Assembly: GCA_964106915.2 (NCBI GenBank)
Contig: OZ066915.1
Direction: 5' to 3' (one strand)
Source of the DNA: Podarcis gaigeae
Taxonomy: Eukaryota
DNA: 64,000 nucleotides
The position numbers and the translations under genes are program-made. The first letter of the stretch is position 1; each line of letters starts with the position of its first letter. Shown one piece after another: positions 7,306 through 56,251 of this stretch. The notes under the pieces were generated by a model. It made no database searches and was not told the DNA's origin. It worked only from the letters and a program-made list of their open reading frames with translations.

Positions 7306-8510
7306 TTTTTATTTTTTAAAAAATTTTTATTAACAATTTTTTGTTTAAATCACAATGCCAATAAAGCAATACAATATCGCCTCTTTTAACATAGATCTTT
7401 TCACTTCTTTGGACTCCCTCACATCTCCCGCTCCTGCATTCCTGGTTATAATTTTATTCAGCAAATTTATCCCCTTATTTTTAATCTTCATAATTAATTT
7501 TCCAATGTTATATCTCTAGTTTTGGCTATCCTTTTATTCAAGTCTTAAAAAGTTTAGACATAACCAATATAATCCAAAATTTTTATCATTTCTTAAATTT
7601 ATCTTATCTTCATAATTCACTTCCTTAAACTCAATGGTGCCAAGTTGTTTATACTCTAGCATCCTTCTTAACATTCATACAATTTACAATATTTTTGTAA
7701 ATAAGTCTTAAATTTCTTCCAATCTTCTTCCACCCTCTCCTCTCCCAGGTCTCGGATTCTGCCGGTCATCTCGGCCAGTTCCATGTAGTCTATCAGTTGC
7801 ATCTGCCACTCTTCCAGTGTGAGTAGATCTTGTGTTTTCCAATGCCTAGCGACGAGTGTCCGTGCTGCTGTTGTTGCATACATAAAGAATGTTCGGTCCT
7901 TCTTTGACACATTCTGGCTGACAATACCCAAAAGAAAGGCCTCTGGTTTCTTAGGGAAGGTATACTTAAATACCTTTTTCAACTCATTATATATCATTTC
8001 CCAGAAAGCCTTCACTCTAGGGCAAGTCCACCAGAGGTGAAAGAATGTTCCTTCATTTTCCTTACACTTCCAGCATTTGTTATCAGAAAAGTGGTATATT
8101 TTTGCAAGTTTGACTGGGGTCAGATACCATCTATATATCATTTTCATAACATTTTCTTTCAAAGCATTACATGCAGTAAACTTCAGCCCAGTAGTCCACA
8201 ACCTCTCCCAGTCTTCAAACATAATGTTATATCCAATGTCCTGTGCCCACTTTATCATAGCCGATTTAACCGTTTCATCTTGTGTATTCCACTTCAGCAG
8301 CAAGTTATACATTTTTGAAAGTACTTTAGTCTTAGGCTCTAACAGTTCCGTTTCTAGCTTCGATTTTTCCACCTGGAATCCTAGCTTTTTATCAAGTTTA
8401 AAAACTTCTTTAATCTGAGCATAATGTAGCCAGTCTCGCACTTTGTCTTTCATTTTCTTCTGACTCTGCAATTTCCAATTATCTCCATCTTTTTCTAATA
8501 TTTCCCAATA
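7306..8510 (-). mobile_element. 5'-truncated L1/Tx1-clade LINE (ORF2 3' end, 3'UTR, A-rich tail)
   Basis: Flanked by direct repeat CTACTGGTGAATAACCCCC(A/C)TTGTTTTA at 7278-7305 and 8511-8538; T-rich tail on + from about 7301; intact ORF2 C-terminus. Confidence 0.92.
7668..8471 (-). CDS. L1/Tx1-type ORF2 C-terminal fragment with CCHC zinc knuckle (truncated, non-autonomous)
   Basis: 267-codon open frame with CWKCKENEGTFFHLWWTC (C-x2-C-x8-H-x4-C), preceded by IYRWYLTP and followed by AAR..ARHWK and W..F..YL motifs typical of L1-clade ORF2 ends. Confidence 0.85.
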   Translation of the reverse strand: MQSQKKMKDKVRDWLHYAQIKEVFKLDKKLGFQVEKSKLETELLEPKTKVLSKMYNLLLKWNTQDETVKSAMIKWAQDIGYNIMFEDWERLWTTGLKFTACNALKENVMKMIYRWYLTPVKLAKIYHFSDNKCWKCKENEGTFFHLWWTCPRVKAFWEMIYNELKKVFKYTFPKKPEAFLLGIVSQNVSKKDRTFFMYATTAARTLVARHWKTQDLLTLEEWQMQLIDYMELAEMTGRIRDLGEERVEEDWKKFKTYLQKYCKLYEC

Positions 8511-25994: not shown

Positions 25995-26489
25995 CTAATG
26001 GTTGGGATTCATCTGTCTTGGGACACATTGGAGGAGTGCACCTTTGCAGGTGAGGTCAGGCTGTTGGAAGATTGCAGCATCTGCTGTGGCTGTAGAGACT
26101 GATGTGGGAGACATGTTTGTTGCAGCTAGGGCTGATGAAGAAATCCAGTTGTGCTGCTGCAGATGCACCATGGCATTTCTTTTCTCTGTGCTCCTCCCAG
26201 CATTCATTTCTCTTCTGGTCACTGACATAGACACACAACTTGACTGCCTGTCTCCAGGTCCTGCTGTTGTCTGCAAGGGATTCCCACATGGCAGGATTAG
26301 TGTTGCCAGCCTTCATGTGCTCTCCCAAGCCCACATTTACAGCATTTACTCCTGTCTCAGTGACATCTATGTTGTCTTGGTCAAATCCACAGAATGGAAG
26401 ATGGCAAGATCCCAAAGGACGTGCTCTATGGGGACCTGGCTTCTGGCACCAAGCAGACCAACTCTGCATTCCAAAGATGTCTACAAAGT
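25995..26489 (-). mobile_element. RTE-clade LINE 3' fragment with inverted 5' segment
   Basis: Minus strand 26318-26040: MKAGNTNPAMWESLADNSRTWRQAV...SPSCNK...LYSHSRCC. Plus strand 26315-26489: LSQAHI...HRMEDGKIPKDVLYGDLASG...RPTLHSKDVYK. Confidence 0.8.
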
Positions 26490-28746
26490 TCATAATATTA
26501 TGCAAATTACTAAAATTAGGCCTTATGAACTGGTCTTTGTCATTTATGTTCTCATCACTTCCAGATTAGATTAGTGTAATGCACTTTCTATGGGGCTGTA
26601 TTTTAAAGGGCAGATTATCTTAATCTGGAAACTGCTTTTTCTATCTCCAAGGATTTGTACTGATTCGTTTTGGGGAAGGAATGATCTTCCACCTCACAGC
26701 GTTGTTATTCCACCACATCCAATTCTGTTGGCATGTTGGGACCCAGAGAGGAAATGTCTGTATTAATATTTGGAGTGTGGGAATGTATATTTATCCATGG
26801 AATTTCTAATCATTTTTACCCCTCCCAAGTGAAAAAACAATCTGAGTTTGCAGCTTGCTTGTTTTATTTCTAAAACATAGCAATCAAAGGAAAAATAATC
26901 AATTGGGCTAATAATGGACATCTCCCCCTTGGGCTTTTCCATTATTTTGTAACAGAGTTATCCCAGGGCTTGTATGAGACTGTGACAACATCAAAAAATA
27001 TTTTCTAAAGAAAGAAATGGCACAAGAGAGGCGGACACTGAATGACAAAACTCCCAAGGGCAAAAGGCTAAATGAGCCTAGCCAGTAACAAGAATGTATA
27101 TTTTCCTATAATAGGACAGTCAATGTTCTTCTTGTTTCCCATGATAAAAGTTCTTCGTTCATTTGAGGATGCATAAGACCACAAAGCTCCCTTCAAGGAC
27201 AAACCCAGGTATTTACTTAGCACAAAATAAGGCACAAAAATTAGTCCGACCATGGCGTATTTGCAGCAAAATTTGTTCAGACTGACAGATTTCCATTTTC
27301 TGTTGGTTGGTTTGCATCACTGTTTTTACTCCTGTCATGGCTATTACAACACTTAGGGCTTAACTACACATTAAAGCAATAAACGCCTACTTCCAGTTCA
27401 CTTCTCCCACATTTCCTCAGTATCTTTTTAGCTTAACAAGATGCAGGTATGGCCTCTTCACATTCAGTGTTCCCCTCCTAATGCTGCACTATGTTGATTA
27501 CCTGCTGTAAACAATGGGCATGCTAAATGTTTGGGTCAACTAAATTTTACTAGGGAGATGCATGCTGGGAATGGCCATATGTTCCTCATACTAGCTAGTT
27601 AGTCATTCTCATTATGCAAGCCTTCCATGTTTCACCGCAATATATGTGCTCAGACACATGTGGTACATGGGCCATATGTCACCTGTCTAAGCCTTTCCTT
27701 TGGCCCTCCAGGGTTGCCCAACCTGTCCCACTGATTTCACCCTATCCAGTGCTCCTGTTGGCCCAGCAAACAGCTGTTTGATGGGTTGCAGGGAGAATTT
27801 GCATGAAAGGAGGGTATATGGGGATGACTTCCTCCCCCATCACAACTGTGCTTCCTTCAACCTAAGGAGAGTGTGGTTGCCAGCATGAATTAGCTGGGGT
27901 GTGCAGGGAGGCACATGATGAGATCCCATCATGCACCCTCTCCCCACCCTCAGATGATTGACACTTGGACAAACTGAGCAATCACAAGTTACCATCTCCT
28001 CTGCACCTGCCCCAGTTTATCATCTTTTAAGAATTTGAGTCAGGGACACTTTTGGACATATGATTACAGCCAGAGAATAGATGCACCTACAGAGTAATCA
28101 GATAAGACCTGGAACATTGTAGTGTTGGGACAAAGTGCCACTCAGCCTACTATAAGTGCCTGTTGGTCACATTTGCAAATTAAGGAAATAAAATGTTTTC
28201 TGTTTACCGAAACACGGGCTTGACAAATTGGGTAAAAGAGGAGTGCATTTGGGAGGAAATTGGAAAAGGATATAGTCAAGATAATGTTATGTTAATGAAA
28301 CCCGCAAGGGGACTCATTTTGGTCTAATAGAATGGCAGAAAGAGGTGATTTATGAATCCCCACTGTTCAAAAATGAGATAAAATACAGGATTATTCAACG
28401 CAAGAAAAAGGCTCAGATATCAGATTTGGCAGCTTTAATCTGATAACAACCCTCTAATTTATCGTCTTTGTGCAGCTCTGCCAGCTGTGATGAGTCCTCA
28501 TAAACCTTCAATAAAAGTAAGAATATGCCAGAAGATTTTGTCCTAAAAAGAGTTATCAAAAGTAAAGAAGATAAAGCCCCCTGTGTGATGTCATTTCATT
28601 AGCAAGCCCTTCTGCCCTAGCTGTGTTTATTGCATCATCAGCCTGGGTTCCACAAAGATCTCTGGGGCCTTGGTCCCCTATCACCCAAGCCCATTTGCCC
28701 TTGCTCCCCTTACCTTGAGAGGCTAAGAAGGAGGAAGTAATATGGT

Positions 28747-30900: not shown

Positions 30901-31863
30901 AGTGATGCCTTTCCCTGGCTGTGCCAAGGCTGGAAGACCATCCCACTGCTGCAGCCATGCCGGACCATGACATCCCCTCCAGCTGGCTGTAAGTTATTAT
31001 GCAGAAAGGGAATATGACTGAATCCAGGTACATCTTCCCATGGCGATGTGATAACTATGTGTAACTCCCTGCACCACCAATTGTTTCTATGTAAATAAAA
31101 CGAGGAGAGTGTGGTTGGCTTCCCTTTTGATCTCTACTTCAAGGTGTGATGATTTAAAGCTTTAGCTTGCAGTGAGAGAATCTGCAGATGCCTCCAAGTA
31201 TTTTATGTGCCCTTTGTCTCTGGCCTTCTTTGTACCTGGCACTTCTTATTACCTCCTTTCCCTTTAGTTCCCGTGCAGAGTAGGCCCTGTTAACTTGCAT
31301 TAACAACATCACACCCTTTGAGCCAATGCAATGTGAAAATGTGCTTTCAGTGCTTCCAAACACGTTCTTGCAGCATGTTCAACACACACGCAATTAAGAT
31401 GCTGAGAAGTATTGAATGCTGGACAGCAACGCTAATAATAGGGACAACCACCGCGATGCAAATATTGAAAGCATTCTTGTGTCTTGATGGTTGAATGTCC
31501 TCCACACAAAAGCGGGAGCAGCTAAGTAGAAACTTGATGAGCAGTACCAAGCGTAGCTATTTTTAGAACTAGGCATGTTAATGTTTCTATTTGTTGCAGA
31601 GCCCCAAGGAGTTCTTCAGCACTCTTGCTTTTATGGTATTTCTGCTACCAGGGAAACGTGTGTGTGCGCTGTACAACTGCAATTTTTCCCATCTTGACTT
31701 AAAGATGCAAAAAATCAGTTCCAATGTAGATATTCCAAAATTTCGGTTCCAAAATAGATATAGAAATAGATGGATAGATACTGTATTTTGTTAATGCCAT
31801 TTATTTTCTTGGCAATGAATGACGCCTTCCTTTAGCAGTATTTGTCCAAATGACCTTTTGTGG

Positions 31864-32191
31864 NNNNNNNNNNNNNNNNNNNNNNNNNNNNNNNNNNNNN
31901 NNNNNNNNNNNNNNNNNNNNNNNNNNNNNNNNNNNNNNNNNNNNNNNNNNNNNNNNNNNNNNNNNNNNNNNNNNNNNNNNNNNNNNNNNNNNNNNNNNNN
32001 NNNNNNNNNNNNNNNNNNNNNNNNNNNNNNNNNNNNNNNNNNNNNNNNNNNNNNNNNNNNNNNNNNNNNNNNNNNNNNNNNNNNNNNNNNNNNNNNNNNN
32101 NNNNNNNNNNNNNNNNNNNNNNNNNNNNNNNNNNNNNNNNNNNNNNNNNNNNNNNNNNNNNNNNNNNNNNNNNNNNNNNNNNNNNNNNNNN
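31864..32191. other. Assembly gap (328 N)
   Basis: Run of N. Confidence 1.
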
Positions 32192-33728
32192 TTTGAAAAT
32201 ACAGGCAACTAAAAATAACCCCACAACTTTAAAGCATAACAAGCTCATTAAAAGAATAAAGAAACAAACTGATTACAATCCTTAGTATATTGTGCTTACA
32301 GAACAACTAGGTCACTATATACTATCTCCAAAATGCCCCATATTTTGCCACTTTCAATTGTCTAGTAGGATACACTGAAGAAACAGGCTCTAGGCAAGGA
32401 GGCCTGGATCATCTAGGAAGATATCCAGCAGGATACAAGCTGCAGTAACTGGGCCCTCAGACTGATGGACCAAAAACCATCCTTATGGAGATGTTACACC
32501 TGTAACTATCAGACAGTAAGTTTTTTCTAGTTGATCTTCATGGAACTCAGCAGATCCCTGGTCAAGAGCATGTGTCATCCATGATTTTTGTTACAACAGA
32601 GTGCATCCTTTGGGAAGTGTGCAACATTCTTTTTGAAACGCAACAACATAATTATGATTATTTTATCTCTTTCATAATTACGAGTAATCGTTTTTTCATC
32701 CATATGAAATGAGAAATATGAAATGGTTATTATTTTCATGTTCATTAGTTATTGGGAATTTATAAGGAAACCCCACCCCCAATTTTATCCATTGCTTCTC
32801 TTTCCAGACATGACCAGGGTCCCAAAGACCCCTCTTCCCTTAGTGGTGCCTATAATAGAAAGAGTCACAATTCTGTGATGTGATGGTTATGCAAAGTGAC
32901 AAGTGGCTGGGAGATTGAAGCATCTGTCTTTCTTGGTCTCTTCCCGCAAGAGGCAGCAGTGAACAGACGTGACATGATCAGAACAGAAGTCTGGACTAAA
33001 TCTTTCACAGTCTGTTAGGGGAGGCAGAGATGGCTGCCGGAGAATGTTTCTCAGCAAGATGCCATACTACTATAGTATTTCTACAAAAGGGGGCGGGAGA
33101 AATCCATACATTCATTTTTTAAAAAATAAAAATGTCATTCTTTATTCTCTGACAATAAACATGTGGCAGAAATTAATATCTATTTCCATCTCCCCTTTTT
33201 ATTCCATCTTTTGGGACCTGATTTAGATTTTGACTTTTAAAACATGCATATATATTTCCCTCAAGACCTGCTAGTAAAATACTATTATGGGCTTTGCTAT
33301 CAGATTTTAGTGAGCAAAAGAATCACTGTGTTTGGCAGGATGCCCTGGAAAACTCTGGGAGTGGGCTGAGCTGGTGCTGATAATTGTTTGTTGTGGTATG
33401 TATATTTGTATTGTAAATCGACCTGTGGTCTTCAGATGAAGGGCAGTATAGAAATTTTCATAATAATAATGTTCTGAATAGGAAAAACCACATAGAGAAG
33501 GGGAAAGGGACATAATTTGCATCAGCGGTGCAATCTGGATATATGTTTCAAAATAAACCACAGCGGCTGCAATTTGAGGGAGAGACACAAAGAATAAGAT
33601 TTGAGTTGGTAGGGGGAATCTGCAAGTTAGTAGAACCAGGAGATACAGTGGTGTGTCTCTCTGAAGATCTGATAGATTTAGCCATCCATTGGAATGGTCA
33701 AGCTGTGCCTCTACCACCAGTGCTCAGC

Positions 33729-35200: not shown

Positions 35201-38200
35201 CAATGGGAATTTCAAGACCTGGGCAAGTTTTCTGGATCAAGTTCAAGAAATCATTGAGCATATGTTTTTAACTTTGAGCCCATGGCTACATTCCATTTTT
35301 GGTATATTAGCCAGAAAGTTTATAGCAGCAAACTTCATAGTTATTGAGACATTTCTTAAATCTCAGGGCTGGTCAATCTTGCTAAGTACTTACAAAAGCC
35401 ACACATATTTGTGTGCATATCGGTTTATAGCATTTTCTGAGGTTTTTTAAAGCATCAGCAGAGCTGTTTTTAGTGCACCTGAGGAGAGGAGCCCAATTTA
35501 TTTATGTTGATGTCACTTAGCAGAGAAGCTAGCATCATTCATGTAACTGTAAGCATTATAATTTTGGGAGTAAAGGGTACACCTGCAGGTTTATAAAAAG
35601 CTGAATTTGTGTTTTTTAAAAACAACTATATGAAGCCACTGGAAACACTCAGCAGGAGGGTTAGGGTGAATGATACCCACCTCTATTTTTCCTTGTCATC
35701 CGAACCAGGGGAGGCCATGCAGGTGCACAATCAGTGCTCAGAGACAATAATGAGAGCTCCCAACCACCTCCTGAGCCAGTTTTGGGAGGTGCAAGGGACA
35801 TGCAGCGGAAAGAGGGGGAGGGGAATTGTACAATCATAAGCCTCTGGGTGGGGTTTCCTCTGATGGGGTTCATTAGGTGACTCCCACCCTCTGTAACAGT
35901 TTTTGGGGGCACAGTGAGCTGAAAAGGAATCATAGTGTGAGAGCACTATGAGTGAAGTACCACTCATGGGGAGTTTGGGTTCAGCCCACTGAATATATAT
36001 TGATTTTGAGTGTCTGAAAGGGGTTATTATGCAACTGCACAGTTCAGATTATTGTTTCAGTAACTGGTTTTCCCAAAGTTGTGTGTGTTCCTTATTAAGT
36101 GTTGTAAAACAGTTCTGCCTAATTTCCCTTTCAGTATGGATTACTCTACTAAAGGGATTCTGTTAACACAAAGTCTCGCGTGCTCTTAATTCCAAAGTCT
36201 TCTCTGAGGAACAATAAAATGACAACAATAAAAGGCACTCGATGATGTGTGTTCCTTATGAGCTGTTTTATGGGATTGGTCGTCAGCAGTGCATTAATAA
36301 AGGCCGCTGATGCTTTGTGGGAAGCACTGAAATGTGATCTACTTTGTAACAGCTTGTGCTTATGACTTCTTGAGACTTTTATGCTTTGTTCTAGCACTAA
36401 AAAGGCATATTTGCAAAACTGGAATACTGATTCCTAAAAAATTCTTTGTGCTTCTCCTATTGATTCACTATCTGAAGTCATAACTCCCTATTGCCTATAA
36501 GGCAACAGAGAAACATTTCCCCCACTACTGCTTTTAAATGAGCTGCAAACAGACTCACATTTCTGCACATGGAGCAAATTATTGTGTGATACCTAGCCTC
36601 CTATACACATTAAAGCATCAATCAGTGCAGCTTGTTAAATGATGGTGGTAGTATAATTAGGACTTCAAACTCAGCTGAACTCCAAATGCTGAAAAAATAT
36701 GCCAAGTGCATTATTCATGTTGGTTTGACATATGAATAACCTCCTGAAAGCTGTTTGTTAGACTGAAGGGAGCGGGTGGCGATCTTGCATTTTCTTAAAT
36801 TATGCTTGGGGAACTAGCTTATTGCACATTCCAGCTTCCCAGTTGAGACTAGTCTTTACAGAGTATAACTTTTCTCAGGATTTTTGTAGATGAGATAAAT
36901 TCAGATATTGTCATAAATTAGACCAGTTCAGTGGTGATGACCATGAAGACCAGAGACCATGGTGGTATATGCAGATTCTTGAGAAACACCTATGTGCTTT
37001 TTACATTTTTTTTGTGGGGAGGTGGAAACACTGTGCTCGGTGCACAAAGTTTCCAATCATGAGTATGCAAGAGAGATTGGCAAGCCAAGACAACATGCCA
37101 GCACCCTCAGATTCACTTATGAAGCTACCGTTCACCAAGTCATGAGCTTCTCCTTCACTTAGTCTGCGGTTGGGCAGGCTCACCACTACTTCTACTTGGA
37201 CAATTGCTTCTACCAGGGCAAGTAAACTGAAGACTGGAGAGCAGCATTTTGAGAGGACTTCTATGAAGAGTAAATAAGTTGAAATCTTCCTTTCAGCGAG
37301 TCAAGAAAAGGATAGCTTAAAAAATAAATAAATGTTGAGGCATCTAGGTGCCAGAATTTATTAATTTTAGAGGAAAATGTTGTCCCCCAAAGCAGCTAAC
37401 ATTTCACTTGCAAGCAATTAAAACAATTGGTTTAAGCAATATAAACAGTATTGAAAAGTAGGCAGTTAAAATAGTACACCGAGGGTGGTCATGGATAATT
37501 ACTCTGCAGCCTCCAGCCAGGTTAAATGCATGCTGCAAAAAAATAATAATTCCTTCAGCAAACACTGGAATGGGCATCAGGATGAAGGCCGAACAAATCT
37601 CCCATTGCAGGGAGTTTCATAACCTGGATACTTCAGTGGAGAAAGGCCCTTACAAACATTGTTCACTTCACATGGAGGTGAGCAAAAAGAAGAAGGGGGG
37701 GAGCCCTCCCTGATGAGTCTCAATGAGGGGACAGGATCATATGAAAGAACACTATCCTCAGGCCTCACAGATTGAATTGCATGCTGGATTAGTTAGGTGT
37801 GTTCAATTAAAAGAGCATTATGGCACTCTGTTGCCCTACCACAACAAATCCACTTTTAAAAAGAAACAGGTTTTTGTTTTCTGGTTAAGAAAGTAAGATG
37901 AAAATGCATTGAAAAGTGTGGAATGAACAAATGATTAGCAGGAAGATAAATTAACACCCTGCAAGGAAATCAGTGTGAAGTGCCCTTGTCATATAACTGT
38001 CCTGTAAACAAATCAGAATGAATGCACAGTAAATGCATGGTATAACCTAACCTCTGCATAGGGTTGTGGGGGAGAATGAATCATTTCACATTTAAAGGAG
38101 AACTTACCTATGTAGCCATCCTTCAAAATTCACATTTACCCAAATTTTGCTGTACAGGTCTCCAATCAAGTAATGCATACAAATATGCATGTATTCAGTA

Positions 38201-38354
38201 CAAGCATCTATAAAAACACTGTCAGGTCTGCCTCTAGATCCCAGCTCACAGAGGACCAACGCCCGGTGGATATAATGTACAAAAGTCTTTATTGAAGTTT
38301 AGTTTCCATTTCAAAGCTCTGGGCGCACAGACCCACGTCTTGACGCTAGACCGG

Positions 38355-39115
38355 CTAAGTCCCCTCTGACTCACTGCTCCACCCCAGTGGCGTAGTGTGG
38401 AGGGTGCAGGGGGGGCGGCCGCACCGGGCGCAACATCTGGGGGGTAGGTTTAGGGGGCACAAATCCACGGGTTAGGGGGCGCAAATCCATGGGTTAGGGG
38501 GTGCAAATTACTTGCCTTGCCCCGGGTGCTGACAACCCATGCTACGCCACTGCTCCACCCACACCAGTTTAAGATTCTAGCCCGGCTCCACCTCCTACGC
38601 TGTTCTTTCCTTCGCTGGGTCCTTCTGCCCTCTGGGGTTTCCTCCTTCCTGGACTCCTCTGATGCTGAGCCCCCTGAGTCTTGTCCCTCCCTCCGGCGGG
38701 CTTTAGGACCTGGCTCCCTTCCCGGGCTCCCCGCTGTGCCGCGCTCCTGTACATTTGAACTTGGCGCGCGCGCCCAGCCGGTGACTTTCCTTCTGACCGT
38801 TTCCCCGCTTCCTGATGTGGGCGTTGCCAAACCTGACTCCTCTCCTCCCGCTGGTGGTGAGGACACTGGTCCCGACTCCTGGGACTCCCCCTCCCCACTG
38901 CGCTCTGGTGGAGAAGCTGGTCCTGATTTCCAACTGCTGCTCAGGGACTCCCCGCTGGCCCCTTCCTCCTGGGGCTTCCCCCCTGGAACCCCCCTCGCTC
39001 TGGCCACCGGCGCTCCCTTCTGTGAGTCCTCCGATTCGCTAGAGAGGCTTGTGGAATAACTCTGGCCACTGTCACTGCCTGCGCCCCCCTCGTACTCCTC
39101 CTCCTCACTCTCCAT
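38355..39115 (-). CDS. LTR-internal ORF, 194 aa after MITE removal; low-complexity, acidic N-terminus and Arg-rich C-terminus; function unknown
   Basis: ATG at 39115 (MESEEEEYEGGAGSDSG...RRTQRRKEQRRRWSRARILNWCGWS|SESEGT*). 761 bp minus 176 bp (MITE plus one TSD) = 585 bp = 195 codons with no internal stop. Confidence 0.4.
38385..38552. mobile_element. hAT MITE (CAGTGGCGTAG TIR), 168 bp, nested in LTR B
   Basis: 11-bp perfect TIR; exact TSD CTCCACCC at 38377-38384 and 38553-38560; three internal TTAGGGGG(C/T)(G/A)CAAAT units at 22-bp spacing. Confidence 0.93.
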
Positions 39116-42100
39116 TTGCTTCCCCTCCTGTGTCTCTCCTTCTGAACCCCTGACAAACACACATATCAGTGAATATAACATTTAGAAATGCATTATTTTA
39201 GGGGGAATTGTTTTGTAAAACTGTGTATATTAGACAAAATCGCATGCAAAAATGTGTATATTAAGAGAAATTTGCATTAAAATGCTGGTGAATTTTCATG
39301 AGGACCTTTTTCAAAAATGCAAACTGATGTGGAAATGTTGAGAACTGAACTTAAGCCTCGATAAAATGAAAAACAGAGAAACTGAAATTGACAGGTTCAT
39401 CTGTATTAGCATTGTGCCAGCAAATCAGGTGGCATGCTCAACAGATGGGTCGACTGGAAGAGCCCAAGGTCAGGGCAAATGCGAGAGATTTCTAATCTGC
39501 AAAACGCTTCACAAACTTGTCACAGTGGGCTGTTAAGGGATCCTCCATCTCACTCCAAAGGTCAAAAGACAAGTAAGCAAAAATAAAGCACTGACCAAAT
39601 TCCAATGACTTCAGCTATCATGTTGATTCTTGCTGAAATATAACTGTCACTGAATTTTAAGTAGTCACAAACGAGTACAAAATGGGTAAATATTTCAGGA
39701 TATGTGAATAAAATGAGTTGTGTGGGATGTCACCTCCCTCTGTAATGAGCCAGAAAAAAAGTGAAGAGGTTGAGGCTAAAGAGTGTTAAAGTTTAAGGCC
39801 AACTAAAACAGTACGAGGCGTCCATTAGAAAAAGATAGTTTGTTGCAGCAGAACCCTCTTAATTGACAGCACTCTGTCAGAAACAAGATATGTAATACCC
39901 ATTAAATGAGCTTCCTCGGTTGTTTTCTATGTATATATTTGTAGTGGGAGTTCATGGTACTCGTGTGGGAGCAATGAGTGGCCAGTATGCTAACTTTACA
40001 AAATGTCCCATAATGGTGCATTCGAGCAACTGTTAGCCAAAAGAAAATATCCATGATTATAAGGGAAAGTGAAAGAGCAACACGGTGGGAAACTGATGTG
40101 CAAGAACTCTAACTCCCACCTGAGCTATAGACTGCTTGGCAGAAGTCAATCTGAAGCTGCTTTATGGTCTCCACTGAGCAGGTCATTAAAGCTCAGGCAA
40201 GCGGAACAATTTATCTGCATTTGAGCAACACTGCAAGCCAACGCCCCACAGCCATTTTCTGCCCATAGTTTCCCATTATGCAGACAGGCCATGTTGTCAG
40301 TACACTATTTAGATGGATCTCATTTGACATGCTGCAAAGCAGCTGAGAGCAGGAGAAAGGGATGCATTTAAAATGCTGAGATATTATCATGCTGCACTCC
40401 TACCACTCATGTAACAAAGTTGTGGCATGTACTGTCTTGTCCTCTTGAGCACACTGGGTGGCATTTGCTTATGTTTTACTCAGAGTAGACCCTTTATTGT
40501 CAATGAACATATGAGCCCTTTAACACCTGGAACAGGGCTTCTACCATTATCAGTGAAGCCCATGCTTAAAATAAAGAGTGCTCTTAGCACAGTAGTACCA
40601 TGGGAGCAAATTTACAGTCACCTCCATGACTCTTGATGGGCAGCATATTGATTCCCATGTGTATTGCATACAGGCAGAGAAAAATCAATTTATCATTGGT
40701 ACATCATTGAATAATCACAGCAGGCATTAAGAATAACACGAATATATCAGCTTGGCACATTAGCCTAACAGCACGATCCCCTGGAACTGATTTCAGGAGA
40801 ATTTGGCAGGGATATAATTATTTTGATTACCCTTAATGTTCTTGAGCATTCAAGAAATGTTCAAGTTGAAAGTTGAGGATAAAGCACCGAAAGAAGACTG
40901 TGTTGGTTGCAAGAACTGAATATTAGGAGAAGGCACATGAAGTATTTTCTGTAGTATTCCCCCCCCCCCCGCCCAAATGCACACGTTGGGACTCATTTGA
41001 ACGATTTGATTTGCACTTCTGATTTTCACTGAAAAAAATATGTCAGACAATTAAGGTCCATTGGGGTGGGTCCCAAGTTGTCATTCCACACATGGAAGAC
41101 ACGGATAGGCTGTGCTTGATACCTCTTACTAGGACATTGCACAAGCAAACAGAAATGAAATCCAAGCAGGTCAATTGAACAATCTCTTACCCATTACAAA
41201 GCATGAGAACTGCTACAAATTCCTCCTATATAGCAATGCTTGAACAGTGTTTGTGTAACAGCATGGGGGGGGGACAGCCCTAGAAGCTGCCATTTGCCTT
41301 CTGCCCATAGTTCTTTGGCACCAGCTCAATGGTGAGCAAGCTTAGATATGATGTTGCTTCCTTGGTGTAATTTATTGTGGAAGAAAGCAGATGTGCATGT
41401 CTGTTTGCTGTTGTTGTTGTTGTTTGTTTTGCAAACTGCCCCTTGAATTGGAAAACCTCACCTCCTCCATTTGAGCCAATGCTTTATCTTCCTGACAAAC
41501 CCCATGCAGGGGACACCCACACCCACTGGGGTAATCAGAACAATGCTCTCCAAATAGACACCTTCCAAAGGGCAGGCAGCTATGTCCACATTCCTCCAAT
41601 TTACCACAGGAACTGTGTAGCTCAGGAGGTTTCTGGCAAGCAGCAGCATGATACAAAATTAATGCACTGAATATGCAGCGATCTCGAGAGTTGAGGGAGA
41701 TCATACCCTCCTCCCACTTTAAATGTTCAGGATGGGATCATTTCTGTCTTTTCTCCAATGAGGTGCATGTCAAATGGGTCATCACAGTAGTATGCCAAAA
41801 TAATCAGAGTCAATCTATATAATACCTTTTGCTTGCCTGGACGGTGGGTGGAGAGGCATGCTGGTAGAAATCTCTCAGACTTTTGAATAGCTAGACTCTA
41901 TGCTACTGTACGAAGGGAAGTGTCCGGGGGTGTTATGTGCCATTTCGCCACTTTAGGTCAAATAGGAATGTGCTGCCCCCCCTCACTGCCACACACACCC
42001 CGCCACCCCACTGCCCGTGCTAAGCCTCTCTTACCTGCATTGTGGCAGCAGCCATGAAATACTGACAGTAGTGCCAGCTTCCAGCAAGATCTTGCACACT

Positions 42101-51433: not shown

Positions 51434-51668
51434 TATATGGTACCTTGGGTTACAGATGCTTCAGGTTACAGACACTTCAGGTTACAGATTCCGCTAACCA
51501 AGAAAGAGTACCTTGGGTTAAGAACTTTGCTTCAGGATGAGAACAGAAATTGCGTGGCGGCGGCAGTGGGAGGCCCCATTTGCTAAAGTGGTACCTCAGG
51601 TTTAGGACAATTTCAGGTTAAGAATGGACCTCCAGAACGAATTAAATTCTTAACCCGAGGTACAACTG
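51434..51668. mobile_element. Tigger-like (Tc1/mariner) MITE
   Basis: GGTACCTTGGGTTACAGA...TAACCCGAGGTACAACTG|TA; same family as 52689 and 55867. Confidence 0.85.
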
Positions 51669-52688
51669 TAATTTGTAAAACTAGATCACTAATGACTTAC
51701 TGATGCTAGCACAGCTTTGCCCATTCACACCAGCTGTTAAACCATCCCTGAAAAGTCTCAGGTGCATTGTCATTGTTCATTAACTAAAGCACATTAATGA
51801 ATGTGTCGCTATTGCTTCTCGCTACTTAAAACTACTAATGGGATTTGTAAATATGTGATACAACCCAATAACTAGTGTTGACGTTGTAAAGCTCTTCATG
51901 AAAATGTTCCTTCCAGGGTCTCCTTTTGTCAAGGCGCGACACTCCATTTCCTGGTAACATGAGTCATATTTTACTTTTGTGCTTCCACTGTGAGATCAGT
52001 GCTGTTGTTCAGCGGCGCTTAATCAAACTGAATAATGAAATTACGGTCCTGGCTATCAAGGAATGAAAAACTCAAACTCGGTATTTTGTGGCAAAATTAA
52101 TGCTTAGTTCAGTATGATACATAGGCCTATCAGGTACTGAGATATTAGTGATGACCTCAATTACTATATAATAAATTCCCCTTTGGGAATCTTATCAGAA
52201 GTAGGTGGAAAACAATGCTTGAATGAGGGTGGCCACTTCCACCCCCCCAAAAGAGGACAATAGAAGAGACAGATTTGCATATGCTAATTGATGCAATTTT
52301 TGAAAATAATTACTAGAATTTTTAAAAGAAATGCAGTGTGGAAATGACTGTGACTGGGTGACTTGCTCAACCTGCTATCCAGGTGCTGCCCAGGTGAGCA
52401 ATTTTTATTGCCCAAGTAGGCTGGGCTATAATTGTCCAGGTGGGCAATTCCTCTCCCTTCTTAGGGTTTGTTTTTTTAAGATCTAAACCATACTTGAATA
52501 TCTTTAAACTATCTTTGGATACAGGATGGCTTTAAATAGATGTCTGTTCCTTGCAAAACACAACAAGTGGGCTTCCATTTGAATTACTAGGGGGAGGAGA
52601 GAGTTCCGCGGGTATCTACACATTCCAACCTCCCATTCCCTCCCATTTGTAGACAACCTGGCCTGTCTATGCTGTTCTTAAAACAATA

Positions 52689-52922
52689 CAGTGGTACCTC
52701 AGGTTACAGATGCTTCAGGTTACAGACGCTTCAGGTTACAGAGTCTGCTAACCCAGAAATAGTACCTCAGGTTAAGAACTTTGCTTCAGAATGAGAACAG
52801 AAATTGCGTGGTGGTGGCACGGCGGCAGTGTGAGGCCCATTAGCTACAGTGGTGTCTCAGGTTAAGAACGGTTAAGAACAGACCTCCGGAACGAATTAAG
52901 TTCTTAACCCGAGGTACCACTG
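52689..52922. mobile_element. Tigger-like (Tc1/mariner) MITE
   Basis: TA TSD on both sides; TIR CAGTGGTACCTC(A/G)GGTTA; internal CTTCAGGTTACAGA repeats. Confidence 0.92.
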
Positions 52923-54519
52923 TAGTTGAAGCAGCCATCACAAAACCCTGTCATTTGAGCAACAGCAGATCTGCAGAGAAAAAATAAAAAACCCTATTTT
53001 GTTCATCACAGTAACAAATATTTTAGTGATTAACCAAATCCTAAAAGGGATTGAGCAATCTTGCATGGCACTGTTTGATGCTTTTCTGTCTATCCATCTT
53101 TCTATGCATACATATTCACACAGTTATTTTATTTCTGTGTACCTAATTCTCCTGTTAAATCATTCTTCCCCCGATCTATGATCTTAGTCCACAGAAATAA
53201 ATCAGTTCTCTGCATGACTGTTTGATGTTAAAAAATTATGCAAAATAGGACTTTTGGGAAGTAATTGAAGCTAAAAACTTGTGATCTCCTTAATATATGC
53301 CTTTCTTTCTTTCTTTTTCCTGCCTGGAAATAATTTCGAATGTGATGCAACTCATTTTAATTTATTTGAATTAGTAACTGCAGCACCAGGGCAGAATGTG
53401 AAGTTAGTGGCATTTCTATTAACAAAAAGCAATTAACTTCTTTTCTTTCTAAAGGAATTCATTCTCCTATAATTCCTTGCTATATTTAATTAAATGGTTG
53501 TGTATTTGAGCTCTTTTCAAATTTGCCTTCATGTCTATTTAAATGTGGTTTAATTCATTCCTATTTCATTTTTGTCCAACATGTTAACTTTCTGACAGTC
53601 TTTGGATCCATTAAAATGGATTGTGAAAAGTACATTTCTGTACCCGGCAGAGGTTTCAGGGAGCTGCAAAGTAGCAGAAAATTGGAGGGGAAGAGAACTT
53701 TAAAGATCTGAAACTTTGAATTTGCAAGGCATTGATTCTTTGGAACTTTGGAGTTCTTTCATTTGATCACCACTTTTTATGCCTGCCCTTTGCTCAGTGC
53801 TTCTAGAATTGCGTGTTGAAGTGTGAAATGCAGAGAAAAAAATGTGTGTGGTGGGTGAGAATCAGAGGAAGGGGATTCTGCCCTTGTTTAAGATCATTTG
53901 TAGGAGTCACTGGGATGCTTCCACAAGAACAGAGCTGTTTGTTCTTTGTACATGGAAGGGCAGAGGAATCACCATTCTGTGCCAAGATGACCCAAATTAT
54001 GCACCAACAGAGCTAAATTTGCAAATGTCCTTTTGTGAGTAATGAGGTGAAGGAAGCGATATGCACTCGCAGTGGTTTGCTATTTTTACTTACTTTATTT
54101 AGAAAAATTTCCAAACCACTTAATATTTTAAAATCTCAAAGTGGCATACAAACATGCAACATAAAAACAATACTATAAGATAATTACAGGGATTCAGTAA
54201 ACAACCACCATGTTAATGTTAATACTAGACATTAACGTTCAATCTTTAATGTTCACACAGCATGTGATAAGGGGCTTAATTATGACTTTAGATAAATTGC
54301 AGGGAGCCTTAAGCAGCAAGAATGTGGGTCAGTTTCTCCGCCTGCACACGGAAATTCCATCTTCTGCACAACTATTAACAGTGCTGGAGTCTTGTCTTCT
54401 TTTACATCTAGCTGTCCTAGAAAAGCATCATTTACTGCAGCAGTAGGGTATTGCTCTTAGGAAACAACTTTCAAGTTCAATGGGACAATAAGGCATGACT
54501 TTTCATGTTGCAGATTTGA

Positions 54520-55835: not shown

Positions 55836-56251
55836 GGGTAGGACCCAAACCAATGGCTTCAAGTTACAGTGGTACCTCAGGTTACAGACGCTTCAGGTTA
55901 TAGATGCTTCAGGTTACAGACTCCGCTAACCCAGAAATAGTACCTCAGGTTAAGAACTTTGCTTCAGGATAAGAACAGAAATCAGCGGGACACCCCATTA
56001 GCTAAAGTGGTACCTCAGGTTAAGAACAGTTTCAGGTTAAGAACGGACCTCCAGAACGAATTAAGTTCTTAACCTGAGGTACCACTGTACAAGAAAGGAG
56101 ATTCCAACTAAACATCAGGAGGAACTTTCTGATGGTAAGAGCTGTTTGACAGTAGACTCCCTCAGGAGGTGGTGGACTCTCATTCCTTGGAGGTTTTTAA
56201 GCATAGGTGGACTGGCCATCTAGCTTCCAACTCTACAATTCTATGATTCTA
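55836..56251 (+). mobile_element. CR1 3' fragment split by a Tigger-like MITE
   Basis: CCAATGGCTTCAAGTTA|CAAGAAAGGAGATTCC.ACTAAACATCAGG...ATTCTATGATTCTA tail. Confidence 0.85.
55867..56087. mobile_element. Tigger-like MITE nested in CR1
   Basis: TA TSD (55865-55866, 56088-56089); perfect TIR CAGTGGTACCTCAGGTTA. Confidence 0.93.

What the first reader, a model, noticed from the sequence alone, without database searches (positions are those of the whole stretch)
38355..39115. Solo LTR encodes an intact 194-aa acidic/Arg-rich ORF once the nested MITE is excised
Seen: the LTR has a TGTCAGG/CCTGACA terminal repeat and an exact AACAC TSD. Removing the 168-bp MITE plus one 8-bp TSD gives a stop-free 585-bp frame from ATG 39115 to TAG 38355, covering about three quarters of the LTR and stopping about 60 bp before AATAAA. 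The protein has an E/S-rich N-terminus, SP-rich middle and an NLS/RNA-binding-like C-terminus (RRTQRRKEQRRRWSRAR). The frame is also open from the LTR's first bases, so it could be the tail of an ORF entering from the internal region. Known: LTR-overlapping ORFs exist in a few retroviruses (MMTV sag, lentiviral nef) but are atypical. Inference: a possible undescribed accessory protein of a squamate LTR family. Caveat: GC/purine-rich DNA is stop-poor, and the opposite strand is also open for 180 codons.
Basis: partly seen in the sequence, partly recalled or inferred. Interest (0 to 1): 0.75.

Follow-up and report, generated by a model that had tools for sequence, protein, structure and literature searches.

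The report
Lizard retrotransposon integrase tail inside LTR
The reading frame in this lone repeat is not a separate gene but the conserved tail end of a lizard jumping gene's integrase protein, which runs unusually far into the element's terminal repeat and may help steer where new copies land.

Summary
The anatomy is real: a 936-bp solo LTR (minus strand, 5-bp target duplication) holding a nested 168-bp MITE. The frame is real, but it is not a stand-alone accessory gene. It is open from the LTR's second base. Of 64 proteins held, 15 (14 Podarcis muralis gene models, one Logan contig protein) run in one chain from an integrase chromodomain across the LTR edge to the same C-terminal motif, so it is the last ~200 residues of a Ty3/Gypsy chromovirus-type Pol. 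A natural uninterrupted 194-aa copy exists (94% identical). The frame is under purifying selection: 18 of 32 listed variants are synonymous, against 9.4 expected (P=0.0013, omega about 0.3). The antisense ORF is a shadow. Pol running into the 3' LTR is known from plant chromoviruses; I found no vertebrate report in nine searches. The new features are a ~370-aa acidic, low-complexity tail ending in a basic patch, placed behind a conserved chromodomain that has lost its aromatic cage. Most likely it works like the disordered NLS/tether tail of Ty1 integrase (inferred, untested).

The parts
38215..38219 (.). 5-bp target-site duplication, left copy
   Evidence: empty-site joint skipping 941 bases in runs X4, X8, X10
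38220..39155 (-). solo LTR of a lacertid Ty3/Gypsy chromovirus-type family (936 bp with the nested element), 7-bp inverted ends
   Evidence: no second copy in the window
39156..39160 (.). 5-bp target-site duplication, right copy
38561..39154 (-). 198 stop-free codons: LTR-encoded C-terminal part of Pol/integrase, open from the LTR's second base
   Evidence: synonymous excess
   Evidence: 0 of 14 full-length relatives checked have Met there; two partial relatives (P0012, P0058) do
39008..39043 (-). 12-residue acidic/serine block invariant among five compared rows; holds a synonymous variant
38753..38791 (-). second conserved stretch (residues 122-134), with synonymous variants at codons 123 and 124
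38561..38626 (-). basic Arg/Lys patch followed by a conserved Trp...Leu-x-Trp-Cys end; candidate nuclear localisation or tether motif (inferred)
38568..38572 (-). AT-rich 5-mer, the only one of the four searched for upstream of the poly(A) signal; candidate TATA-like box, which would place the frame in U3 (inferred)
   Evidence: Sushi LTR description in PMC3601003 section 12
38385..38552 (.). nested 168-bp MITE with 16-nt terminal inverted repeats and a 22-bp internal tandem repeat; interrupts this copy's frame; hAT-type by its 8-bp duplication (class recalled)
38553..38560 (.). 8-bp target-site duplication of the MITE (other copy 38377-38384)
38355..38384 (-). nine codons and TAG equal to the end of natural protein P0003
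38288..38293 (-). AATAAA poly(A) signal, 68 nt from the LTR end
38454..39059 (+). antisense ORF in the frame sharing third codon positions; by-product of the sense frame

Best explanation
The window holds a solo LTR left by recombination of a young Ty3/Gypsy chromovirus-type retrotransposon of lacertid lizards. In the full element the pol frame (protease, RT, RNase H, integrase, GPY/SH3, chromodomain) does not stop before the polypurine tract. It runs on for about 370 residues, the last ~200 encoded in the U3 part of the 3' LTR, and ends about 60 nt before the poly(A) signal. SHOWN: frame continuity in relatives, a preserved frame across subfamilies 49-75% identical, and purifying selection. 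INFERRED: the tail is translated only from the genomic RNA as part of Gag-Pol and stays on the mature integrase as a flexible acidic, Ser/Gly/Pro-rich arm. Its short conserved blocks and terminal basic patch would serve nuclear import and docking on a host chromatin or transcription factor, as the disordered C-terminal half of Ty1 integrase does. Confidence is about 0.93 for 'C-terminal part of Pol' and about 0.5 for the import/tether role. The solo LTR cannot make this protein as Pol, and this copy is further interrupted by a MITE.
For: Longer-protein search: best hits are Podarcis muralis Gypsy polyproteins P0008, P0009 and P0010, with protease, RT, RNase H, integrase and SH3_Tf2-1 families in Gypsy order; best PDB match is Ty3 Gag-Pol, E 1e-132. 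Of 64 proteins held, 33 have the chromodomain start, 21 reach the LTR edge in frame and 15 run on to the terminal motif, 9 of them with the RT motif too; all 15 end 12 residues after it. Chromodomain-to-LTR-edge spacing is constant within groups (204, 203 or 186 residues, with single cases of 191 and 239), which argues against invented introns. P0011 comes from one 1384-bp Logan contig. The first four residues of the window's LTR frame equal those after the G-rich 'GGFEGGMD' stretch in relatives. 18 of 32 listed variants are synonymous, 9.4 expected, P=0.0013, none makes a stop, omega about 0.33; without four rows that rest mainly on one contig, 17 of 28. No insertion or deletion at 10% share is listed in the body (table 4). 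Hydrophobic residues make up 8% of the LTR part against 40% in RT; charge is mostly negative or near zero along the tail and +10 in the last full 30-residue window. Ty1 precedent: PMC8487063 abstract, PMC10050235 passages.
Against: No full-length Pol of the window's own subfamily was found; those that carry the whole tail are 49-68% identical. 14 of the 15 are gene models whose exon structure I could not see. 12 of 33 chromodomain-bearing proteins do not reach the LTR edge in frame, and 6 of 21 that do lack the terminal motif; I read these as decayed or truncated copies. The variant test uses 32 rows of 40 shown, with 99 more hidden by the tool, and the rows are not independent events on a tree. 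The antisense shadow frame also shows a synonymous excess (16 of 32, P=0.018), so that test alone does not fix the strand. The tail is far less conserved than the enzymes (55-57% against 87-90% between P0008 and P0051). Nothing here shows translation, lack of protease cleavage, import or binding.
Confidence: 0.8

Rival explanations
1. The tail is made as part of Gag-Pol but cut off by the element's protease and acts as a free accessory protein (RNA chaperone, anti-silencing factor or import helper).
For: It is long (about 370 residues), evolves at its own rate and ends in an Arg-rich patch that could bind RNA.
Against: No cleavage site was identified or tested. In Ty1 a disordered half of like kind stays on integrase (PMC8487063 abstract).
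Confidence: 0.2
2. The tail is a near-neutral passenger. The frame is kept open for RNA-level reasons (stop codon close to the poly(A) site, or U3 promoter motifs), and the protein sequence matters little.
For: Purine-rich, stop-poor DNA: 86 of 5000 shuffles keep this frame open; omega of only about 0.3; the terminal Leu-x-Trp-Cys overlaps the candidate TATA-like box.
Against: Selection against stops alone would not double the synonymous share (18 against 9.4). All 6 listed variants in invariant columns are silent, so the DNA changes there while the residue stays (partly circular, since the columns were defined by invariance).
Confidence: 0.15
3. A separate LTR-encoded accessory gene with its own start (nef- or sag-like), expressed from a spliced or upstream-initiated RNA, also from solo LTRs.
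For: ATG at codon 14 gives a 194-aa ORF in natural copy P0003. 11 of 14 full-length relatives have some Met within 25 codons of the LTR edge. Six gene models begin in the LTR frame and continue into gag-pol (P0013, P0060-P0064).
Against: The Met position varies (codon 14, 18, 25 or 36) and 2 of 14 have none in the first 40 codons. The frame is open upstream and continuous with Pol. The candidate promoter box lies at the frame's end, so an LTR transcript would start after it (inferred).
Confidence: 0.06
4. Chance open frame in GC- and purine-skewed LTR DNA.
For: 615 of 5000 shuffles give a run of 185 codons or more in some frame; no Pfam family and no usable Atlas hit.
Against: Same frame, same end motif and in-frame length differences across subfamilies about 50% identical; continuity with Pol; synonymous excess.
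Confidence: 0.02

Closest known systems
Plant chromoviruses whose gag-pol frame extends into the 3' LTR (CRM group A; beet Beetle7 and Bingo1-4, 7)
   Same: [quoted passage not shown]
   Different: In CRM group A the LTR encodes the CR motif that stands in place of a chromodomain. Here a chromodomain is kept about 200 residues upstream of the LTR, and the LTR part is a ~200-residue low-complexity tail, in a vertebrate. No CR motif comparison was run.
Tf1/Sushi group of vertebrate and fungal chromoviruses (Sushi-ichi, Amn elements)
   Same: SH3_Tf2-1/GPY module followed by a chromodomain-like fold; AATAAA close to the LTR's 3' end; vertebrate host.
   Different: Fungal and vertebrate chromodomains are described as group I, with the aromatic cage (PMC3350952 passages). 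Here the cage positions are Asn, Lys/Arg and mostly Thr. No RT tree and no primer-site check were done.
Ty1 integrase disordered C-terminal half (bipartite NLS and Pol III tether TD1)
   Same: Long, poorly conserved, low-complexity extension of integrase with short motifs and basic patches near the end (PMC8487063 abstract; PMC10050235 passages).
   Different: Ty1 is a Copia element and its tail is internal to Pol, followed by RT. No sequence homology was tested or is claimed; it is a works-like comparison only.
Retroviral LTR-overlapping genes (lentiviral nef, MMTV sag; recalled)
   Same: Coding sequence inside U3.
   Different: Those are separate genes with their own start in env-bearing retroviruses (recalled). 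This frame is fused to Gypsy Pol and has no conserved start.

Membership tests
Ty3/Gypsy LTR retrotransposon | Pol order protease, RT, RNase H, integrase | tested here: met
   P0008: RVP_2 32-132, RVT_1 241-402, RNase H 491-597, integrase 696-866; tested on relatives, since the window holds only the LTR
Ty3/Gypsy LTR retrotransposon | TG...CA ends and 4-6-bp target duplication | tested here: met
   empty-site joints
Ty3/Gypsy LTR retrotransposon | Polypurine tract directly before the 3' LTR | tested here: inconclusive
Chromovirus | Chromodomain after the GPY/F module of integrase | tested here: met
   Pfam Chromo E 6.3e-5 but 23.2 bits, under the 25.1 cut-off; Atlas 28 of 30 hits Chromo, best 0.92; gap-free match to CBX5, E 0.0013
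Chromovirus, Tf1/Sushi group | RT/integrase phylogeny within Tf1/Sushi; self-priming in place of a tRNA primer site | not testable with these tools
   no named reference set and no internal DNA were available
Group I chromodomain | three-residue aromatic cage | tested here: not met
   31 whole domains: first site Asn 30, Gln 1; second Arg 20, Lys 10, Glu 1; third Thr 27, Phe 3, Ala 1
Group II chromodomain | first and usually third aromatic lost, central Trp kept | tested here: not met
   central Trp absent in 31 of 31; definition from PMC3350952 and PMC6317226 passages
CRM group A | [quoted passage not shown] | tested here: met
CRM group A | CR motif in the LTR replacing the chromodomain; plant CRM clade | tested here: not met
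   a chromodomain is kept upstream of the LTR; the LTR part hits no Pfam family; no direct CR alignment was made
nef/sag-type retroviral accessory gene | separate ORF with its own conserved start in a retrovirus | tested here: not met
   start not conserved, frame fused to Gypsy Pol
hAT-type MITE (nested element) | 8-bp target duplication, short terminal inverted repeats, high copy number, no coding capacity | tested here: met
   the superfamily label is recalled and no repeat library was searched

The most novel reading that the evidence does not exclude
A recently active vertebrate chromovirus has turned most of its U3 into coding sequence for a new integration-targeting arm. Its chromodomain is conserved like the enzymes (87%) yet has lost the whole methyl-lysine cage, and a ~370-residue flexible tail with conserved short motifs has taken over or redirected chromatin targeting. 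This would parallel the plant CR motif and the Ty1 tether by convergence, against the published statement that integrases other than Ty1's lack a large disordered linker to their targeting domain (PMC10050235, passage). Thousands of LTR copies would then carry a dual-coded promoter/protein sequence.
Probability: 0.3. Interest if true: 0.65.

Novelty: new variant of a known kind. Interest (0 to 1): 0.4.

Why it matters
It corrects the reading of the locus: not a new retroviral accessory gene but the end of a Gypsy integrase. What remains of note for retrotransposon biologists is a vertebrate case of Pol running about 200 codons into U3 under selection, behind a cage-less chromodomain. That gives a concrete, testable candidate for how a high-copy lizard element enters the nucleus and picks its sites, and an example of an LTR that cannot be treated as neutral non-coding DNA when copies are dated or annotated: its ORFs already appear as 'hypothetical proteins' in Podarcis annotations.

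Tried and rejected
No whole genome is held for the window, so copies could not be collected from an assembly. Metagenome scan: 508 pattern matches, none confirmed. Pfam on the LTR frame and on the antisense frame: no family at E 0.1. ESM Atlas on P0003: no usable hit. Rfam on 37500-40000: none. Bacterial promoter scan: not applicable, none found. AlphaFold2 on P0023 with a 19-row alignment: mean pLDDT 32.6, and the integrase core itself was not folded, so the model says nothing on disorder and no fold search was run. No RNA holder was listed among sequencing runs; this is no evidence on expression. Earlier findings of the scan: three look-ups, nothing. Antisense ORF as a gene: rejected, since 1483 of 5000 codon-order shuffles of the sense frame give an antisense run as long as the native 165 codons. 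A CK2-regulated tail (6 S/T-x-x-D/E sites; Ty1 precedent PMC9673352 abstract) is only a lead: such sites are expected in acidic serine-rich sequence, and that abstract reports no mobility change from removing the sites. Depth ratios of LTR body to flank (about 500-2100) were not taken as copy numbers, as the tool warns. The search for relatives of the chromodomain-plus-linker region returned 5 proteins, all Podarcis muralis; word-based and length-limited, it does not bound the family's range.

Full report
OBSERVATION. The element spans 38220-39155, with 7-bp inverted ends and identical 5-bp flanks. A 168-bp element with 16-nt inverted ends sits at 38385-38552 between identical 8-mers, and AATAAA lies on the minus strand at 38293-38288. 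No second copy of the LTR lies in the window. On the minus strand one frame has no stop from the LTR's second base (39154) to the insertion, 198 codons; natively it ends inside the MITE. Beyond the insertion nine codons and a TAG follow. I left the interrupted frame as it is and looked for natural copies. P0003, from a 910-bp Logan contig, is 194 aa, 94% identical, and ends in those nine residues. Contigs of runs X1 and X10 cross the site without the nested element. By length alone it would be unremarkable: 86 of 5000 dinucleotide shuffles keep this frame open, 353 keep some frame open, and 615 give a run of 185 codons or more.

WHAT IT BELONGS TO. A search among proteins of similar length gave 4 hits, an unindexed phmmer search 4, and a search among longer proteins 6, five of them Podarcis muralis Gypsy polyproteins. 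P0008 carries protease, RT, RNase H, integrase and SH3_Tf2-1 families in Gypsy order, and its best PDB match is Ty3 Gag-Pol. The match to the window is the last 209 residues of P0008. Cluster members were then listed (15 of 23, 15 of 24, 12 of 12, 3 of 3, 7 of 7, 1 of 1). Among all 64 proteins held, 33 have the chromodomain start, 21 reach the LTR edge in frame, and 15 continue to the terminal Trp...Leu-x-Trp-Cys motif and stop 12 residues later; 9 of the 15 also hold the RT motif. The distance from chromodomain to LTR edge is 204, 203 or 186 residues by group, with single cases of 191 and 239. One of the 15, P0011, is a 415-aa product of a single 1384-bp Logan contig; the other 14 are gene models whose exons I could not see. 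The window's LTR frame begins with the same four residues that follow a Gly/Glu-rich stretch, the likely translated polypurine tract, in these proteins. Against this reading: the remaining 18 of 33 break or end earlier, and the 15 are only 49-68% identical to the window, so continuity in the window's own subfamily is inferred from the shared frame, not seen.

THE ATG IS NOT A CONSERVED START. Of 14 full-length relatives with the LTR-edge motif, none has Met at codon 14; ten have one at 25, one at 18, one at 36, and two have none in the first 40 codons. Two partial relatives share codon 14. The only AT-rich 5-mer among those searched upstream of the poly(A) signal lies at 38572-38568, in the frame's last codons. 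Sushi-type LTRs are described with an AT-rich stretch and an AATAAA near the 3' end (PMC3601003, section 12 and passages read). If that is the promoter, the frame lies in U3, before the start site, and is transcribed only at the 3' end of the genomic RNA. This is inference; no start-site data were available.

SELECTION. Contigs of four runs from four organisms were laid on 38160-39195 at 80% likeness. The tool showed 40 variant rows and hid 99; 32 of the 40 fall in the LTR body. In the Pol frame 18 are synonymous against 9.4 expected when each change is moved to a random place with the same base (P=0.0013); 18 lie at third positions (10.6 expected); none makes a stop (1.4 expected); omega is about 0.33. 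Leaving out four rows that rest mainly on one contig gives 17 of 28. Four of the five other frames show no excess. No insertion or deletion at 10% share is listed in the body, though short contigs tend to be clipped at indels, and three single-contig joints (skipping 90, 113 and 31 bases) are listed there. Between subfamilies about 50-75% identical the length differences are in frame, with the caveat that protein databases favour open frames. Between P0008 and P0051 identity is 87-90% for RT, RNase H, integrase, SH3 and chromodomain, 55% for the linker and 57% for the LTR part. Conservation sits in short blocks; 76 of 198 residues are invariant among five rows.

AGE AND ABUNDANCE. Runs of organisms B, D and E each have a contig joining the two flanks with one copy of the 5-bp site; none is listed for organism A, whose run shares most words with the window. 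The insertion is therefore young or polymorphic. Summed depth over the LTR is about 500-2100 times that of the flanks, which suggests many copies but is not a copy number.

THE CHROMODOMAIN. Residues about 1075-1129 of P0008 match Pfam Chromo (E 6.3e-5, 23.2 bits, under the 25.1 cut-off), Chromo clusters in the Atlas (28 of 30 hits, best 0.92) and CBX5 without gaps (E 0.0013). At the three cage positions, read from that alignment (the first by extending it two residues; HP1 cage positions and recall), 31 whole domains have Asn 30 times, Lys/Arg 30 times and Thr 27 times; three keep Phe at the third site (two broken domains left out). Group I keeps all three aromatics and group II keeps the central Trp (PMC3350952, PMC3605345, PMC6317226, passages). 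This domain fits neither, yet is as conserved as the enzymes.

HOW IT MOST LIKELY WORKS. Shown: the frame is the end of Pol and is under moderate purifying selection. Inferred: about 370 residues follow the chromodomain; the LTR part is 8% hydrophobic and 42% Ser/Gly/Pro; charge is mostly negative or near zero until a +10 patch near the end. That is the make-up of a disordered arm with short motifs. Ty1 integrase has such a half (PMC8487063, abstract and opening read), carrying a bipartite NLS and a 16-residue Pol III tether on a ~230-residue flexible linker (PMC10050235, passages). I put the import/tether role at about 0.5, release as a free protein at 0.2, a near-neutral passenger at 0.15 and a separate gene at 0.06. 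A structure prediction failed even on the integrase core and was discarded.

COMPARISON AND NOVELTY. Pol running into the 3' LTR is known: all CRM group A elements do so and encode the CR motif there (PMC3059260, passages), as do beet Beetle7 and Bingo1-4 and 7 (PMC3605345, passages). Nine literature searches (listings and abstract starts only, apart from the papers named) showed no report of this for a vertebrate or lacertid element. The library lacks most subscription papers, I could not see Repbase, Dfam or GyDB entries, and I read no supplements; such entries may well note ORFs overlapping the LTR. The sequences already stand in UniRef under generic names. Verdict: a new variant of a known kind, interest 0.4. 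The boldest reading not excluded is a new targeting arm that replaces a cage-less chromodomain (probability 0.3, interest 0.65).

Noticed in passing
window 7668-8510 (-): A 280-codon stop-free frame that reads like the C-terminal end of an L1/Tx1-type LINE ORF2, with a Cys/His knuckle (label recalled); no Pfam family passed its cut-off.
   Followed up: partly
proteins P0013, P0060-P0064: Six Podarcis muralis gene models begin in the LTR frame and continue into gag-pol; the three shown in full have the same junction. Probably an annotation artefact at the 5' LTR, but a real splice is not excluded.
   Followed up: partly
window 38385-38552: The nested MITE belongs to a far more abundant family than the LTR (depth several times higher in all four runs) and sits just after the candidate TATA-like box, so this LTR's promoter is probably disturbed too (inferred).
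   Followed up: partly
window 31864-32191: A run of 328 N; the cluster of long ORFs listed at 31791-32285 comes from this gap.
   Followed up: yes
window 51438-51673, 52687-52927, 55865-56089: Three copies of a ~240-bp repeat, 82-85% alike, each with a 16-bp tandem unit; probably a SINE-like family.
   Followed up: no
window 25999-26574 (+) and 26056-26565 (-): Overlapping long frames on both strands with no Pfam family above cut-off; perhaps an antisense shadow of a LINE fragment.
   Followed up: partly
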